Source: a virus (lineage: Duplodnaviria; Heunggongvirae; Uroviricota; Caudoviricetes). Taken from it: a stretch of DNA of 15,142 bases. Positions within the stretch are counted from its first letter, which is position 1. Each line of letters begins with the position of its first letter. Under the pieces are notes generated by a model. It had not been told where the DNA came from. It made no database searches and saw nothing but the letters and a program-made list of their open reading frames with translations. Positions 1,269 to 4,784 of the stretch are shown piece after piece. The translations under genes were made by a program, and so were the position numbers. The stretch lies in IMG/VR virus record IMGVR_UViG_2671180770_000004, positions 1 through 15,142 of that record, one strand, 5' to 3'.

Positions 1269-1401
1269 TCTTTGGGACTCCTGGCTGATTAAGTATGTCG
1301 ATAAGGCGTTTCCATCCGTCACGTAATTTACGGGTGATTCGTTCAAGTAAAGATTCGGAAGGGCAGCCAGCAACAGGCCACCCTGCAATGGCATATTGCA
1401 T
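1237..1401 (-). CDS. cIII: CIII, FtsH/HflB protease inhibitor, 54 aa
   Basis: C-terminal 54 aa of track ORF 1237..1503 ([54 protein letters not shown]) matches lambda CIII by recall. ATG at 1401-1399 preceded by AAGGAG RBS. Confidence 0.85.
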   Translation of the reverse strand: MQYAIAGWPVAGCPSESLLERITRKLRDGWKRLIDILNQPGVPKNGSNTYGYPD

Positions 1402-1462
1402 GGTGTGCTCCTTATTTATACATAACGAAAAACGCCTCGAGTGAAGCGTTATTGGTATGCAT

Positions 1463-1592: not shown

Positions 1593-2063
1593 CTAATAAA
1601 ATACCCAATTTTCTGTTTCTTGGTTGTGCCCAAAGTTATATTCAATATCTGGTGTTGATGTATCAATATTCTTCATCCCATCAACAAGAGTTGATACAAC
1701 AGCCAAATCTTGTTTGATTCTCATTAAATGGTATTTCTTCCGGCGCAATAAACTTTCAATGGCAAGTTTCTTCGTTGGGAATGCAAAAGATCTTTCTGCA
1801 TTTTTTGCTACTTTCTTAATTGCATATCTATTTCTCTTTTGTTTCCATTCCTGTAACCACTGATTTGGTGCTGGTTTAAAATTAACAATCCAATGCGCAG
1901 GAACCAACCATGCATAATGCTCTGTCTGATGAAAAGCTATATATTGAAGTGCGAATATTTTGATTCCATCTTCTTCAACTGTCGCCTGGAATCTCCAGAA
2001 AACAGGCATTCCATCATGTTCAGTTTCTGATTCAGGAAAAGGTACGCTCCATGATTTTGTCAT
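1593..2063 (-). CDS. Hypothetical protein, 156 aa, AT-rich accessory gene between N and cIII
   Basis: Intact ORF with strong RBS (GAGGTGA 6 nt upstream of ATG at 2063-2061). AT-rich relative to flanking lambda-like genes. No family recognised. Confidence 0.6.
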   Translation of the reverse strand: MTKSWSVPFPESETEHDGMPVFWRFQATVEEDGIKIFALQYIAFHQTEHYAWLVPAHWIVNFKPAPNQWLQEWKQKRNRYAIKKVAKNAERSFAFPTKKLAIESLLRRKKYHLMRIKQDLAVVSTLVDGMKNIDTSTPDIEYNFGHNQETENWVFY

Positions 2064-2125: not shown

Positions 2126-2350
2126 TCATAATTCACTCTTCAATACTTCCAACTTACTAATCGCCGATAGATATCCGCGCTGATAGGTCATCATCATTCC
2201 TTCGAGCTTGCCACTTCTTAACTCCTCCCTGAGCAATTGTATTGCTTGATCAATAACCTCTGCCTTAGCGTCCTTTATGGCTTGCTTGCGGGGCTTTGCT
2301 TTCTGCTTTGGCAGATTTCTCAAGCATGATGGAATGTATGTCTGATTCAT
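2126..2350 (-). CDS. Hypothetical small basic protein, about 74 aa, translationally coupled to N
   Basis: ATG at 2350-2348 lies 3 nt after the N stop (minus strand GAGGTAAGTGATG; the GAGG in the last N codons serves as RBS). No family recognised. Confidence 0.5.
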   Translation of the reverse strand: MNQTYIPSCLRNLPKQKAKPRKQAIKDAKAEVIDQAIQLLREELRSGKLEGMMMTYQRGYLSAISKLEVLKSEL

Positions 2351-2353
2351 CAC

Positions 2354-2626
2354 TTACCTCGCTGTCAGTTGTTTTGATTTCCGGTAGCCTGCCGCGTAAA
2401 TGGCTACGTTTGGCAGGCAAATACTTCCACTGCATTCATCTGCCTTCTTGCAGCGAAGGCTTCCGAGTGATGCTGCTTTATCTGCTCTGACGCAACCAGA
2501 GAGCTTTAGCGCAATTTTTCGCGCCAGTCGCTGCTCTTGCATTGCCTGTTCACGTTGAGCCTGTCTGCGTGCTCTGCGGCGATTTCTGGCGTTATCGTCA
2601 GCCAGATATGTAATGACTACTGTCAT
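2354..2626 (-). CDS. N: N-type transcription antiterminator (P22 gene 24 / phi21 N family)
   Basis: 90 aa with an N-terminal arginine-rich motif (NARNRRRARRQAQREQ) and a C-terminus ...LPNVAIYAAGYRKSKQLTAR resembling P22 gp24 by recall. GGAGG RBS 5 nt upstream. First gene downstream of oL/nutL. Confidence 0.8.
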   Translation of the reverse strand: MTVVITYLADDNARNRRRARRQAQREQAMQEQRLARKIALKLSGCVRADKAASLGSLRCKKADECSGSICLPNVAIYAAGYRKSKQLTAR

Positions 2627-2821: not shown

Positions 2822-2908
2822 GAATACTGTAGGTATTTTATTATGTAAATACCCAAGGTATTTATTTTTGGTGAAATAATGATAAGCAAATGAATACAAA
2901 GGATATTT
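2822..2908. promoter_or_regulatory. oL operator cluster (three 17-bp dyad sites) with embedded pL
   Basis: GAATACtgtagGTATTT (2822-2838), AAATACCcaaGGTATTT (2847-2863), GAATACaaaggATATTT (2892-2908). Half-site consensus about AATAC. Same dyad family as the oR sites. Confidence 0.55.
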
Positions 2909-2993
2909 ATTTTTTCGGTGTCTGCTTGTTCAGTGCTTTTTATGCGGGATATGTGAAGTGGATCCCGATAGCTATTGCTGCCGGGATTATGAG

Positions 2994-3362
2994 TTAGTCA
3001 GCGAAGGTTAAGACGAGAATTACCTTAATGATGTCTGCTACAACAGACACGGCCATAGATAAACCAAAGACGATCCAAGCCATAGAGATGTCTTCACTAC
3101 CATCGTATAGAGTTCCGTAATCACTGGTGTAAGGCGTAAATGTCGCGCCTTGATACAATAGGTATAAGCTTGATCCATAGAGGATAAATGCAGATATCCC
3201 TTGTATTGCCATGATCACCAGAATCATGAAACGAGCTGATCTATGCGCCCAAGCCTGGCTTATTTTTTCTGATAGAGATTTCGCAATAAAAGCATGCGCT
3301 AAGCCGTAAATTGTCGAGATTGCCAACATCCCAAAAAAGCTTGCTATAGCGGTTCCAACCAT
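2994..3362 (-). CDS. Small polytopic membrane protein (about 122 aa) downstream of cI in the rexAB position; candidate exclusion/defence protein
   Basis: Track ORF 2994..3383. Probable ATG at 3362-3360, 17 nt after the cI stop, with a GGGG purine-rich RBS. About three predicted TM helices (AIMVGTAIASFFGMLAISTIYGL, FMILVIMAIQGISAFILYG, MAWIVFGLSMAVSVVADIIKVILVL). No similarity to lambda RexA/RexB recognised. Confidence 0.6.
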   Translation of the reverse strand: MVGTAIASFFGMLAISTIYGLAHAFIAKSLSEKISQAWAHRSARFMILVIMAIQGISAFILYGSSLYLLYQGATFTPYTSDYGTLYDGSEDISMAWIVFGLSMAVSVVADIIKVILVLTFAD

Positions 3363-3379
3363 AATCGCCCCTTGCGTGA

Positions 3380-4096
3380 TCAAACCAGCCTTAGTTTTGT
3401 CTCAATTGCAACGCCTATAATCTTGCAGTTTCCATTGATTGGCACGAGAGGCCATGCAGGATTAAGTCCCTTGAGGTATTTATTTCCGCCGTCGATTATC
3501 AGCTTCTTGAATGTTGCTTCGTTAGAGTCAGAAAGTTTTGCTATGACCAAGCTGCCGTTGATCGCCTCCCTTCCGGTATCGAAAAGAACGAATGTTCCCT
3601 CTGGAATGCTTAACCCAACCGGTGCCGTCATTGAATCACCTTCCACTTTAAGCCAGAACGCATTACCTTGAATATGCGCGTCAGACTCAAGCCAAACATC
3701 TATGTCTTTAATGGTGTATGGTTCGCATGCTTCACACCACGAGCCAGCCTGGATACTGCTTAACACCGGATACCTCTTTCCTGCTCTGTATTCCCCTGCA
3801 TACCTTACGTTGGCATCGCTCTTAAGGCTTTCTGCCTGTTCTGCAACCTTGGCAGCAATTGACTGGCTAAAATCAGCAATTGAGACTTGCAACAATCGTG
3901 CAAAACCAGATGCAACCTCAACGTTTAGCGCATTTCTGCCATTAAGATAATGCCCTACCGCTCCTTGGGTGATACCCAGTTCATCAGCGATTGAGTATTG
4001 GGTTATTCCCAATTCTTTCTTTTTTGACTCATACAAAGCCTTAAGCCGCTTAGCGTCTTCGAGCTGTTCTGTCGTCAGTGATTTTTTATTTTCCAT
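3380..4096 (-). CDS. cI: CI-type prophage repressor (HTH N-domain plus LexA/S24-like autocleavage C-domain)
   Basis: 238 aa. N-terminus MENKKSLTTEQLEDAKRLKALYESKKKELG resembles lambda cI. C-domain ...SWCEACEPYTIKDIDVW...FWLKVEGDSMTAPVGLSIPEG...FKKLIIDGGNKYLKGLNPAWPLVPINGNCKIIGV resembles 434 cI by recall. Divergent from cro across the operator region. Confidence 0.9.
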   Translation of the reverse strand: MENKKSLTTEQLEDAKRLKALYESKKKELGITQYSIADELGITQGAVGHYLNGRNALNVEVASGFARLLQVSIADFSQSIAAKVAEQAESLKSDANVRYAGEYRAGKRYPVLSSIQAGSWCEACEPYTIKDIDVWLESDAHIQGNAFWLKVEGDSMTAPVGLSIPEGTFVLFDTGREAINGSLVIAKLSDSNEATFKKLIIDGGNKYLKGLNPAWPLVPINGNCKIIGVAIETKLRLV

Positions 4097-4130
4097 AGCT
4101 TAATTCTAATAGCTAAGGTACTTAAACTAA

Positions 4131-4173
4131 AAATACCCTGAGTATTGATTGTTTTGAATACCTGTAGTATTCT
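4131..4173. promoter_or_regulatory. oR operators with pR
   Basis: 17-bp dyads AAATACCctgAGTATTG (4131-4147) and GAATACctgtaGTATTC (4156-4172, perfect palindrome). Candidate pR -35 TTGATT (4145-4150), 17-bp spacer, -10 TATTCT (4168-4173), directed toward cro. A third operator and pRM are likely in 4097-4130 but not resolved. Confidence 0.6.
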
Positions 4174-4202
4174 TTGTTCATGGTTAATAACGGAGAGTGC
4201 AT

Positions 4203-4397
4203 ATGATTCGAATGACACTTGCCGATTACGCCAAAATCCATGGACAGGCTAAAGCAGCCAGTGACTTTGGTGTAATCCAGTGCGCTATCAGCAAGGCCAT
4301 TCTGGCAGGCCGTAACATTATGGTTACGGTAAAGCCTGATGGCAGTGTGATTGGAGAGGAGGTTCGACCTTTCCCAAGCAACAAGAAAAACAAATAG
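4203..4397 (+). CDS. cro: Cro repressor
   Basis: [64 protein letters not shown] aligns with lambda Cro by recall (...[34 protein letters not shown]). GGAGAG RBS 5 nt upstream of ATG 4203. The track starts at an upstream GTG (4197). Confidence 0.85.
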
Positions 4398-4403
4398 TAA
4401 CAC

Positions 4404-4446
4404 CGCTCTTTAACAGTCATGGTCCTCATTCCCGCCGAAATGCGGG
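4404..4446 (+). promoter_or_regulatory. nutR: boxA plus boxB hairpin
   Basis: CGCTCTTTAACA (4404-4415), 15-nt spacer, CCCGCCGAAATGCGGG (4431-4446), the same boxB as nutL. Followed by hairpin GCGCA-tcagttgg-TGCGC (4455-4472), a possible tR1-like element. Confidence 0.65.
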
Positions 4447-4505
4447 AATACAACGCGCATCAGTTGGTGCGCATAACTTCTTATTTGTTAAGGAAATACT
4501 TACAT

Positions 4506-4784
4506 ATGCAACTTACAAGTACTCGCAAGAAAGCGAATGCAATTACAAGCAACATCCTAAATCGAATTGCTGTACGTGGTCAGCGAAAGGTTGCTGATGC
4601 ATTAGGGATCAATGAATCGCAAATTTCGCGATGGAAAGACAGCTTTATCCCAAAGATGGCCATGCTTCTGGCTGTGCTGGAGTGGGGTGTTGAAGACGAG
4701 GAATTAGCGGAGCTGGCAAAGAAAGTAGCCATGGTGCTGACAAAAGAAAAGCCTCAAGACTGCGGCAACAGTTTTGAGGCCTGA
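4506..4784 (+). CDS. cII: CII transcriptional activator
   Basis: MQLTSTRKKANAITSNILNRIAVRGQRKVADALGINESQISRWKDSFIPKMAMLLAVLEWGVEDEELAELAKKVA... shares the lambda CII core (SQISRWK...IPK..MLLAVLEWGV) by recall. AAGGAAAT RBS. The track ORF begins upstream at 4419 inside nutR and is not the true start. Confidence 0.85.
   Translation: MQLTSTRKKANAITSNILNRIAVRGQRKVADALGINESQISRWKDSFIPKMAMLLAVLEWGVEDEELAELAKKVAMVLTKEKPQDCGNSFEA
4742..4780 (-). terminator. Putative oop-like antisense terminator inside the cII 3' end
   Basis: Minus strand reads GCCTCAA-(16 nt)-TTGAGGC followed by TTTTCTTTTG. This is the position and orientation of lambda t-oop (antisense to the cII 3' end). Confidence 0.45.

What the first reader, a model, noticed from the sequence alone, without database searches (positions are those of the whole stretch)
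2994..3383. Small three-TM membrane protein co-oriented with cI in the rexAB slot: candidate superinfection-exclusion or abortive-infection gene
The gene begins 17 nt after the cI stop on the same strand, so it is plausibly expressed from pRM in lysogens, as rexA/rexB are in lambda. It is a single 122-aa hydrophobic protein with no resemblance I can see to RexA or RexB. Genes in this position are typically lysogen-expressed phage-exclusion functions, so it could be a compact exclusion module.
Basis: partly seen in the sequence, partly recalled or inferred. Interest (0 to 1): 0.65.

Follow-up and report, generated by a model that had tools for sequence, protein, structure and literature searches.

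The report
Phage HK620 hkaS membrane gene
This is hkaS, an already catalogued but never studied phage gene for a tiny three-pass membrane protein that rides in the same transcript as the prophage repressor, at the spot where phage lambda keeps its rexAB anti-phage genes; it is a sensible but untested candidate for blocking rival phages.

Summary
A 122-codon gene (window 2994-3362, minus strand) starts 17 nt after the cI stop and has its own ribosome-binding site. The reported end, 3383, belongs to a longer TTG reading that homologues rule out.

The gene is hkaS of coliphage HK620, annotated "unknown" in GenBank. It occurs at 92-98% protein identity in 16 phage records and in 146 of 5,426 complete E. 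coli genomes.

- **Protein:** a confidently modelled three-helix inner-membrane protein, N-terminus outside and C-terminus inside.
- **Relatives:** an orphan family. I found no Pfam, NCBIfam, PADLOC or PDB match, no RexB similarity, and no relatives among 1.84 billion representative proteins.
- **Selection:** it is under purifying selection but changes faster than cI.
- **Position:** every homologue, down to 50% identity, lies 17-20 nt after a cI gene, is followed by a hairpin or terminator, and sits inside the operator-bounded immunity region.
- **The slot:** closely related repressors carry other cargo there, including genuine rexA-rexB, BstA and other defence families (8-9 of 34 surveyed).

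Expression from the repressor promoters in lysogens is well supported by anatomy. The phage-exclusion function remains inference. I favour a block of incoming phage DNA at the inner membrane (about 0.3) over abortive infection (0.15) or a role unrelated to phages (0.25). Interest is moderate.

The parts
2994..3362 (-). hkaS coding sequence: 122 aa, three-pass inner-membrane protein, stop TAA at 2996..2994
   Evidence: ORF. 96.7% identical over 120 of its 122 residues (tblastn) to HK620 hkaS, AAK28867. PHROG 6534 match at E 4.6e-79 over the full length. AF2 model pLDDT 89.5. Purifying selection.
3368..3373 (-). Shine-Dalgarno AAGGGG, 5 nt before the hkaS ATG
   Evidence: Read from the sequence. 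Purine-rich SD-like runs sit at the same place in all homologous loci despite different intergenic sequences.
3380..4096 (-). cI repressor (238 aa), the upstream gene of the operon
   Evidence: Pfam HTH_3 8e-10 and Peptidase_S24 5e-24. 99.6-100% identical to cI of HK620, mEpX2, HK140 and HK630.
2962..2987 (-). GC-rich hairpin 7 nt after the hkaS stop: probable 3' end or stabiliser of the cI-hkaS transcript (no U-tract in this copy)
   Evidence: dG -13.7 kcal/mol, z -4.1, 0 of 200 shuffles fold as well. A hairpin occurs at the same position in every homologous locus. In L012 and L044 it is a canonical stem plus U-run terminator.
2822..2908 (.). Left operator cluster: 17-bp sites at about 2822-2838 and 2847-2863, and a third operator-like site at about 2892-2908, with pL reading away towards N
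   Evidence: The pattern AATAYCNNNRGTATT with at most 1 mismatch matches only at 2823-2837, 2848-2862, 2893-2907, 4132-4146 and 4157-4171 in 15 kb (0.21 expected by chance). OL1, OL2 and pL follow the HK620 annotation.
4107..4172 (.). Right operator cluster OR3-OR2-OR1 with pR/pRM. OR3 ends 10 nt from the cI ATG, the same spacing as in lambda.
   Evidence: HK620 annotation transferred with a constant offset of 5019. Pattern matches. Lambda geometry taken from NC_001416.
2354..2626 (-). N antiterminator, first gene of the pL operon: the left boundary of the cI-N cargo slot
   Evidence: Pfam N_peptide 1e-15 and PHROG 271.

Best explanation
hkaS is a cargo gene in the repressor operon of an HK620-immunity lambdoid prophage.

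**Anatomy shown here.** The gene lies 17 nt after cI, with its own ribosome-binding site and no room for a promoter. A hairpin follows it, and then come the left operators. It lies upstream of pL, which points away from it. It can therefore only be transcribed through cI, from pRM in lysogens and from pRE during establishment.

**Product shown here.** The protein is a 122-aa inner-membrane protein with three helices. Its N-terminus faces the periplasm, a basic amphipathic loop 1 faces the cytoplasm, an acidic Tyr/Gly-rich hairpin loop 2 faces the periplasm, and its C-terminus is cytoplasmic.

**Function inferred.** In the lysogen it sits in the inner membrane and stops superinfecting phages at the stage where their DNA crosses that membrane. 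That is a superinfection-exclusion mechanism of the kind known for T4 Imm, P22 SieA and HK97 gp15. On this reading the fast-evolving periplasmic loop would be the surface that meets incoming phage proteins. The invariant cytoplasmic-side cluster (W38, H40, R44, D110, K113, C-terminal VLTFAD) would hold the fold or a host partner.
For: **Operon anatomy.**
- The gap, SD, hairpin and operators are as described, and the HK620 record annotates a cI-transcript terminator after hkaS.
- The same arrangement holds in all 11 retrieved homologous loci, covering six distinct protein sequences down to about 50% mutual identity. They come from E. coli, Salmonella and Buttiauxella records and from metagenome contigs, one of which carries a protein that NCBI lists for Hafnia.
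- Two of those loci have textbook intrinsic terminators after the gene.

**Real, maintained gene.**
- dN/dS is 0.15.
- It is full-length in 146 of 5,426 complete E. coli genomes, and it is an annotated CDS in all 25 rows shown.
- This exact protein is seen on 637 contigs.

**Membrane protein with conserved topology**.

**The slot is a cargo and defence hotspot.**
- rexA-rexB sits next to a 76%-identical cI.
- BstA (twice) and other PADLOC families account for 8-9 of 34 surveyed slot proteins.
- stk sits in the slot of a Stx1 phage that shares this window's flanks.
- Owen et al. 2021 (PMC8585504) describe the cI-N region as a hotspot of mosaic diversity. [quoted passage not shown]
- In E. coli LF82, a different transmembrane protein of the lambdoid prophage Perceval (locus tag LF82_152, two away from the cI tag LF82_154) reads 81-fold above prophage background in RNA-seq (PMC9928086). 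The 168-aa four-TM gene I found two genes after that prophage's cI is probably this protein. I did not map the old locus tags onto the RefSeq tags.

**Pointers to entry block rather than abortive infection.**
- There is no partner gene and no soluble sensing domain.
- The periplasmic loop is the least conserved part (47% mean identity, 2 of 22 positions invariant).
Against: - No experiment and no homology links HkaS to phage exclusion. PADLOC, Pfam, NCBIfam, PDB sequences, BFVD and PDB folds all gave nothing specific.
- From my own knowledge, not checked here: known entry-blocking Sie genes such as P22 sieA and HK97 gene 15 lie near the virion genes they protect against. hkaS instead travels with the repressor. 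Judged from record names and genome sizes only, it is found in phages of different virion types: HK620, classified in Lederbergvirus, the 47-kb HK630, and 61-65-kb Stx2c phages. The characterised genes of this slot (rexAB, bstA, stk) are abortive or heterotypic systems, not entry blockers.
- The most conserved surface is cytoplasmic, which would suit an intracellular partner equally well.
- About three quarters of the slot genes surveyed have no known defence role.
Confidence: 0.3

Rival explanations
1. Single-component abortive infection. HkaS is a stand-alone membrane effector doing the job of RexB without a RexA-like sensor. It would oligomerise into a pore or leak that an infecting phage triggers, collapsing the membrane potential and killing the cell before progeny are made.
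For: - It occupies exactly the place of rexAB.
- The other characterised genes of this slot are abortive or heterotypic systems: BstA (PMC8585504) and stk.
- It has a conserved buried Asp110/Lys113 pair in helix 3 and Gln54 in helix 2, as channel-lining or gating residues might look.
- The conserved cytoplasmic face could receive a trigger.
- Its topology is N-out/C-in with three helices. From my own knowledge, class I holins have this topology.
Against: - It has no similarity to RexB and three helices rather than four.
- It has no sensor gene or sensor domain.
- There is no evidence of toxicity or oligomerisation.
- A constitutively expressed pore-former would need tight control, and nothing in the locus suggests any.
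Confidence: 0.15
2. Lysogenic-conversion function unrelated to phages. HkaS would be a membrane protein that benefits the lysogen in another way. Examples are immunity to a membrane-targeting bacteriocin, colicin or contact-dependent toxin (from my own knowledge, E1-type pore-forming colicin immunity proteins are also about 110-aa three-helix inner-membrane proteins), or tolerance of an envelope stress.
For: - The slot holds many non-defence-looking genes: an MscS-like channel, a DUF1275 membrane protein, a Tlde1-domain protein and a secreted 135-aa protein of the kind found in phage 434.
- In phage Huey, a feature annotated PagP lies under a match centred on the repressor gene.
- The size and helix count of HkaS are compatible with small immunity proteins.
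- It is retained in diverse E. coli from gut, food and water.
Against: - There is no Pfam or NCBIfam hit to any immunity family at E up to 1.
- No toxin gene is nearby.
- The family is confined to the repressor-adjacent prophage position and never appears elsewhere in bacterial genomes.
Confidence: 0.25
3. A role in the phage's own switch or life cycle. Examples are a membrane input that modulates repressor stability or induction, or protection of the establishing lysogen.
For: - Obligatory co-transcription with cI from pRM and pRE (anatomy).
- Every HkaS homologue is next to a cI with the same C-terminal domain type, including one hybrid repressor whose DNA-binding domain and operators are different.
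Against: - The same cI C-terminal domain (84-90% identical) occurs with at least eight other downstream genes, including rexA. The linkage is therefore explained by adjacency and by the conserved domain acting as a recombination arm.
- Repressors 65-76% identical to this one work without hkaS.
Confidence: 0.08
4. A hitch-hiker of little or no present function, kept only because it is trapped between cI and its left operators.
For: - It evolves four to seven times faster than cI at the protein level (pN 0.27-0.33 against 0.06-0.08 for window-versus-distant pairs; dN/dS 0.15 against 0.02).
- HF4s carries an apparent frameshift: two aligned pieces at 91.7% identity.
Against: - dN/dS is well below 1 with saturated synonymous sites.
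- Length, topology, SD and 33 invariant residues are conserved across six distinct sequences.
- Other relatives of this repressor have an empty slot, so loss is possible, yet it has not happened in these lineages.
Confidence: 0.07

Closest known systems
hkaS of coliphage HK620 (GenBank AF335538, protein AAK28867; PHROG 6534)
   Same: It is the same gene. The protein is 96.7% identical over 120 of 122 residues and the 1.3-kb region is 99.1% identical at DNA level. The neighbours are the same: cI upstream, and the left operators, pL and N downstream. It matches PHROG 6534 over the full length at E 4.6e-79.
   Different: Nothing substantive: four differing residues in the aligned 120. In this window the surrounding phage is a different mosaic, and no phage record covers more than 57% of the 15 kb. 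The function of hkaS itself is unknown.
lambda rexA-rexB (abortive infection; RexB is a 144-aa four-helix membrane protein)
   Same: The same slot and orientation: after cI, before the left operators, in the pRM/pRE transcript. A repressor 76% identical to this one carries genuine rexAB in that place. Both encode a small polytopic inner-membrane protein.
   Different: No sequence similarity (hhalign probability 0.6%). Three helices rather than four. One gene rather than two, with no RexA-like sensor.
Small inner-membrane superinfection-exclusion proteins (T4 Imm, P22 SieA, HK97 gp15)
   Same: They are small phage-encoded inner-membrane proteins made in the protected cell, with no enzymatic domain. 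SieA is expressed from the prophage and blocks P22 DNA injection at the inner membrane (PMC10883804). This is the mechanism I favour for HkaS.
   Different: No detectable sequence or fold relationship. From my own knowledge, those genes sit elsewhere in their genomes, near virion genes or in early regions, whereas hkaS is in the repressor operon. Exclusion by HkaS has not been tested.
BstA of Salmonella prophage BTP1 and stk of Stx phages (other cargo of the cI-N slot)
   Same: They lie downstream of the repressor and are presumed to share its promoter. BstA is highly expressed in lysogens and mediates phage defence (PMC8585504). stk lies between cI and N in a phage that shares this window's flanks.
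   Different: Both are large soluble proteins (BstA about 300 aa, Stk about 350 aa) with different mechanisms and no similarity to HkaS.

Membership tests
HkaS family (PHROG 6534) | Full-length sequence match to the family profile | tested here: met
   E 4.6e-79, residues 1-122 on profile positions 1-122. 92-98% protein identity over residues 1-120 in 16 phage records.
HkaS family (PHROG 6534) | Position 17-20 nt downstream of a cI-type repressor, followed by a hairpin and the left operators | tested here: met
   True of the window and of all retrieved homologous loci, L001-L012 and L044.
lambda RexB | Sequence similarity to RexB | tested here: not met
   hhalign probability 0.56%. No PADLOC hit at E up to 1. 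tblastn with lambda RexB finds nothing in the window but does find L020.
lambda RexB | Four transmembrane helices | tested here: not met
   The AF2 model has three membrane-length helices.
lambda RexB | Adjacent rexA partner gene | tested here: not met
   cI is immediately upstream, and a hairpin and the operators are immediately downstream. There is no second gene.
lambda RexB | Location in the cI transcript between cI and the left operators | tested here: met
lambda RexB | Abortive exclusion of T4 rII and other phages with loss of membrane potential | not testable with these tools
   Needs plating and membrane-potential assays.
Known Sie proteins (T4 Imm, P22 SieA/SieB, HK97 gp15) | Sequence or fold similarity to a described Sie family | tested here: not met
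   Pfam and PHROGs searches at E up to 1 returned only the protein's own PHROG plus chance-level hits. BFVD fold search gave no match at E below 0.26. I made no direct pairwise comparison with the individual Sie proteins.
Known Sie proteins (T4 Imm, P22 SieA/SieB, HK97 gp15) | Inner-membrane location in the protected cell | tested here: inconclusive
   Predicted from three hydrophobic helices and a conserved positive-inside charge pattern. Not shown experimentally.
Known Sie proteins (T4 Imm, P22 SieA/SieB, HK97 gp15) | Blocks entry of phage DNA after normal adsorption | not testable with these tools
   Needs adsorption and DNA-entry assays.
Class I holins | Three helices with N-out/C-in topology | tested here: met
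Class I holins | Highly charged C-terminal cytoplasmic tail, location in the late lysis cassette, and a match to a holin family | tested here: not met
   The protein ends ...VLTFAD with no tail. The gene is in the repressor operon. There is no holin Pfam or PHROG hit.
Pore-forming colicin immunity proteins (E1 type) | Match to an immunity-protein family and linkage to a toxin gene | tested here: not met
   No Pfam or NCBIfam hit. No toxin gene is in the neighbourhood.
Moron (autonomous cargo unit, as used for lambdoid phages) | Own promoter and own terminator flanking a gene not needed for lytic growth | tested here: inconclusive
   A terminator-like hairpin is present. No separate promoter is possible in the 17-nt gap, and the scan found none. 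It is better described as cargo of the repressor operon.

The most novel reading that the evidence does not exclude
HkaS is a self-sufficient 122-aa membrane protein of a fold family with no known relatives that does alone what lambda needs RexA plus RexB for. It would sense an incoming phage at the membrane and then either shut the DNA entry route or collapse the membrane potential. That would make it one of the smallest single-gene anti-phage systems, with the variable periplasmic loop as its specificity determinant.
Probability: 0.12. Interest if true: 0.65.

Novelty: new member of a known kind. Interest (0 to 1): 0.35.

Why it matters
If HkaS excludes phages, it adds a new and very small protein family to the prophage-encoded defences. 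It is easy to clone and test, and it is present in about 3% of complete E. coli genomes, including records named as Stx2c-converting phages and O145:H28 and O111:H8 strains.

It would also give a compact model for how a membrane protein with no soluble domain recognises an infecting phage.

More generally, the survey supports using "first gene after the repressor" as a cheap search rule for new defence genes. The conserved cI C-terminal domain appears to act as the recombination arm that swaps this cargo.

If HkaS has no phage phenotype, it is one more uncharacterised lysogen-expressed membrane protein.

Tried and rejected
- **Homology searches.**
  - Pfam gave only TssN at E 0.066, far below its cut-off, which I take as chance.
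  - NCBIfam, PADLOC and PDB sequences gave nothing.
  - The 5.8-billion-protein search found only 12 clusters, all the same family.
  - The exhaustive profile search of 1.84 billion representatives found only the family's own cluster and a 44-aa fragment.
- **Fold searches.**
  - BFVD and PDB Foldseek gave no match at E below 0.26.
  - The afdb50 library was unavailable.
- **RexB relationship.** Rejected.
- **Functional coupling to the cI C-terminal domain.** The Buttiauxella hybrid repressor suggested this idea. I rejected it as the main explanation when the same domain, 84-90% identical, turned up with at least eight other downstream genes.
- **Expression data from the literature.**
  - The LF82 study (PMC9928086) looked promising, because its prophage Gally is compared with HK620 and a highly expressed 'transmembrane protein' is listed for prophage Perceval near its cI.
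  - The Perceval repressor region carries no hkaS. Its two post-cI genes are a 340-aa soluble protein and a 168-aa four-TM protein.
  - It serves only as an analogy.
- **Literature on hkaS.** One search was wasted on substring matches, and the exact search found no paper. The mEpX2 and HK620 searches found no functional work on this gene.
- **HK620's annotated tIMM as the terminator.** It coincides with an operator-like palindrome, so I prefer the GC-rich hairpin at 2962-2987.
- **RNA families.** There is no Rfam family in the focal region.
- **First operator pattern.** My first pattern had the wrong spacing and found nothing useful. I corrected it.
Full report
**1. What is there**

The window carries a lambdoid immunity region on the minus strand:
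- cro (4197-4397, +) and cII (4419-4784, +);
- cI (3380-4096, -; HTH_3 plus Peptidase_S24);
- the gene in question (2994-3362, -);
- operators and pL;
- N (2354-2626, -).

The 122-codon reading it describes starts at ATG 3362. That is 17 nt after the cI stop codon (3382-3380) and 5 nt after an AAGGGG ribosome-binding site.

Homologues confirm the ATG. Each has a purine-rich SD before the equivalent ATG, in an otherwise different spacer. In the Salmonella version an in-frame TAA immediately precedes it.

**2. It is a known, named, uncharacterised gene**

The 1.3 kb around it is 98.7-99.3% identical to 16 phage records. These include HK620, HK630, HK140, mEpX2, HF4s, HZ41, two Stx2c-converting phages, phi296 and phi367.

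In the HK620 record the gene is hkaS, product "unknown". The annotators placed "tIMM; termination of cI transcript" after it.

It matches PHROG 6534 (unknown function) end to end at E 4.6e-79.

It is present, full-length and at 95% identity or more, in 146 of 5,426 complete E. coli genomes, always on the chromosome. All 25 rows shown are annotated "hypothetical protein". The exact protein of this window is seen on 637 contigs, and no source gives it a name.

No paper in the searchable library mentions hkaS together with HK620.

**3. The protein**

AlphaFold2 with the family alignment gives a confident model: mean pLDDT 89.5 and no residue below 70. It has helices 2-29, 41-74 and 89-121, a short helix at 31-38 and a small beta hairpin at 78-86.

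The charge distribution fixes the topology, and it is the same in all six distinct sequences:
- loop 1 (28-45) carries +3 to +5 net charge, so it is cytoplasmic;
- loop 2 (71-92) carries -1 to -4 net charge, so it is periplasmic;
- therefore the N-terminus is outside and the C-terminus inside.

Conservation is uneven:

| Region | Conservation |
|---|---|
| C-terminal VLTFAD | invariant |
| Loop 1 (cytoplasmic) | best conserved after the invariant C-end, 67% mean identity (K33, W38, H40, A43-R44-F45 invariant) |
| Helix 2 | Q54 and YLLY invariant |
| Helix 3 | D110 and K113 invariant |
| Loop 2 (periplasmic) | least conserved, 47% mean identity, 2 of 22 positions invariant |

**4. It is an orphan family**

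- There is no Pfam hit beyond a chance-level TssN match, and no NCBIfam, PADLOC or PDB sequence hit.
- The word-indexed search of 5.8 billion proteins found 12 clusters, all the same family. The sources name only E. coli, Hafnia and Salmonella for them.
- The exhaustive profile search of 1.84 billion representatives found only the family's own cluster and a 44-residue fragment.
- Fold searches gave nothing specific.
- Profile comparison with lambda RexB gave 0.6% probability.

**5. It is a real gene under selection**

Between the window and the 82%-identical relative, dN/dS is 0.15, against 0.02 for the adjacent cI. In the more distant pairs synonymous sites are saturated (pS about 0.8). For window-versus-distant pairs, pN is 0.27-0.32 for hkaS and 0.06-0.08 for cI.

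So hkaS is constrained, but it changes four to seven times faster than the repressor beside it.

**6. Conserved anatomy of the locus**

Every homologue I could place on a contig lies 17-20 nt after a cI gene. Where the contig extends further, it also lies before N. These comprise six distinct sequences, including a new one found in Buttiauxella.

A stable hairpin follows the stop codon in each locus although the sequences differ.
- In the window it is at 2962-2987 (dG -13.7 kcal/mol, z -4.1). It lacks a U-tract.
- In L012 and L044 it is a canonical stem followed by a run of U.

The repressor's operator motif (AATAYC-N3-RGTATT) occurs five times in the 15-kb window, against 0.21 expected by chance. 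All five sites flank the cI-hkaS pair.

OR3 ends 10 nt from the cI ATG, the same spacing as in lambda. From my own knowledge, the lambda pRM transcript starts at the cI start codon.

pL lies beyond hkaS and points away from it. The only way to transcribe hkaS is therefore through cI, from pRM in lysogens and from pRE during establishment. This step is inferred from anatomy. I found no transcript data for this gene.

**7. What the slot holds elsewhere**

A scan of one genome per species returned 80 loci with relatives of this repressor. The first co-oriented ORF after cI is extremely varied:
- 22 loci have an ORF within 65 nt of the cI stop;
- 8 of those have at least one predicted membrane segment;
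- only one is HkaS.

In Siccibacter, a repressor 76% identical to this one is followed by RexA (E 1.7e-109) and by a RexB 98% identical to lambda's. hkaS and rexAB are therefore alternative cargo of one slot.

Of 34 slot proteins of about 100 residues or more, 30 came from that survey and 4 from other phage and prophage loci retrieved earlier. Eight or nine matched known or candidate defence families in PADLOC:
- BstA (twice) and RexA;
- PDC-M03A, PDC-S42, PDC-S43 and PDC-M63A;
- capP and RmrA.

The tool reports counts per family, not which member matched, so some overlap is possible.

Others are an MscS-like channel, a DUF1275 membrane protein, a Tlde1-domain protein and a NYN-domain protein. 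A secreted 135-aa protein shared with phage 434 also recurs.

A Stx1 phage that shares this window's flanks has four genes in the slot, including stk.

Owen et al. 2021 make the same point for bstA, and cite earlier work calling the cI-N region a hotspot of mosaic diversity (PMC8585504). In E. coli LF82, a 'transmembrane protein' of the lambdoid prophage Perceval (locus tag LF82_152, two away from the cI tag LF82_154) reads 81-fold above prophage background in RNA-seq (PMC9928086). The Perceval repressor is followed by a 340-aa soluble protein and a 168-aa four-TM protein, and the latter is probably LF82_152. I did not map the paper's locus tags onto the RefSeq tags.

**8. Why the linkage to cI is so tight**

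I first thought HkaS might be tied to one immunity specificity. The Buttiauxella locus disproves that. Its repressor has the same C-terminal domain (87% identical) but an unrelated DNA-binding domain and different operators (TTAAGT...CTTAAA), and it still carries hkaS with a perfect terminator.

I then considered a functional tie to the C-terminal domain. That domain, at 84-90% identity, occurs with at least eight other downstream genes, including rexA.

The simplest reading is that the conserved C-terminal domain on one side, and the operator/nutL region on the other, serve as homology arms for exchanging cargo.

**9. Mechanism**

*Shown:*
- a small polytopic inner-membrane protein with conserved topology;
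- purifying selection;
- an obligatory place in the repressor transcript;
- a slot that holds known or candidate defence families in 8-9 of 34 cases.

*Inferred:* the protein is made in lysogens and serves the lysogen.

I commit to superinfection exclusion at the inner membrane, meaning a block of DNA entry, at about 0.3. My reasons:
- the protein has no partner and no soluble domain;
- the small inner-membrane Sie proteins I know of lack partners and soluble domains too;
- its most variable part faces the periplasm, where incoming phage proteins arrive.

Against this, the characterised genes of this slot are abortive or heterotypic systems. In addition, hkaS travels with the repressor rather than with virion genes, through phages that, judging by their names and genome sizes, have different virion types.

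The other readings:

| Reading | Probability |
|---|---|
| Single-component abortive system | 0.15 |
| Function unrelated to phages | 0.25 |
| Role in the phage's own switch | 0.08 |
| Near-neutral hitch-hiker | 0.07 |

The remainder is unassigned.

**10. Verdict**

The positional reasoning is correct but already embodied in a 2001-era annotation. The functional claim is plausible and untested.

hkaS is a good, cheap experimental target rather than a surprise. I score interest at 0.35. If hkaS does exclude phages, it would be a new family within a known kind of system.

Noticed in passing
window 9213-11066 (-): A 617-aa ORF on the opposite strand inside the nin region, with no Pfam, NCBIfam or PADLOC match. 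A 590-aa 'hypothetical protein' lies at the same place and in the same orientation in Stx1 phage AU6Stx1. It looks like another cargo gene.
   Followed up: partly
window 2869-2912 (HK620 record 7888-7931): The HK620 record's 'tIMM' terminator coincides with a third operator-like palindrome (AATATCCTTTGTATT, 2893-2907). Its annotated 'OL3' (window 2869-2885) contains no operator-like sequence. The two labels may be displaced. The hairpin conserved in position is at 2962-2987.
   Followed up: partly
L020 (Siccibacter colletis NZ_JMSQ01000026.1), about 3320-4610: Genuine rexA and rexB (RexB 98% identical to lambda's) lie downstream of a repressor 76% identical to this window's cI. This shows near-identical rexAB moving between immunity regions.
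   Followed up: yes
L018 3109-3513 (phage 434); L072, L073, L081: A 135-aa protein with a signal peptide recurs immediately after, or overlapping, the cI stop in several Enterobacterales. In one phage 434 record it is annotated 'repressor protection protein'. It is another uncharacterised family of the same slot.
   Followed up: no
L099 5550-7100 (E. coli LF82 prophage Perceval): After the Perceval repressor come a 340-aa soluble protein and a 168-aa four-helix membrane protein with a charged tail. This is a RexA/RexB-like architecture. The paper lists a Perceval 'transmembrane protein', LF82_152, at 81-fold above prophage background in lysogen RNA-seq (PMC9928086). It is probably the 168-aa protein, but I did not map the locus tags.
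   Followed up: partly
L019-L098 (cI relatives): The cI C-terminal (S24) domain is conserved at 84-90% identity across repressors whose N-terminal DNA-binding domains are unrelated (14-25% identity). The junction is in the linker, which is a clear domain-swap boundary.
   Followed up: partly
window 1356-1414 (-): Rfam Lambda_thermo (the cIII thermoregulator element): 88.5 bits against a gathering score of 50.
   Followed up: no
window 1593-2063 (-) and 2126-2353 (-): Two pL-operon ORFs between N and cIII, of 156 aa (PHROG 1636) and 75 aa (PHROG 5305). Both are of unknown function with no Pfam family. In HK620 the corresponding stretch differs: the record lists hkaQ and hkaP, with hkaP noted as a 'putative superinfection exclusion protein'.
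   Followed up: no
MT833387.1 (phage HF4s) 28106-28464: hkaS aligns there in two pieces over 359 nt at 91.7% identity. This suggests a one-base deletion or frameshift in that phage, or a sequencing error.
   Followed up: no
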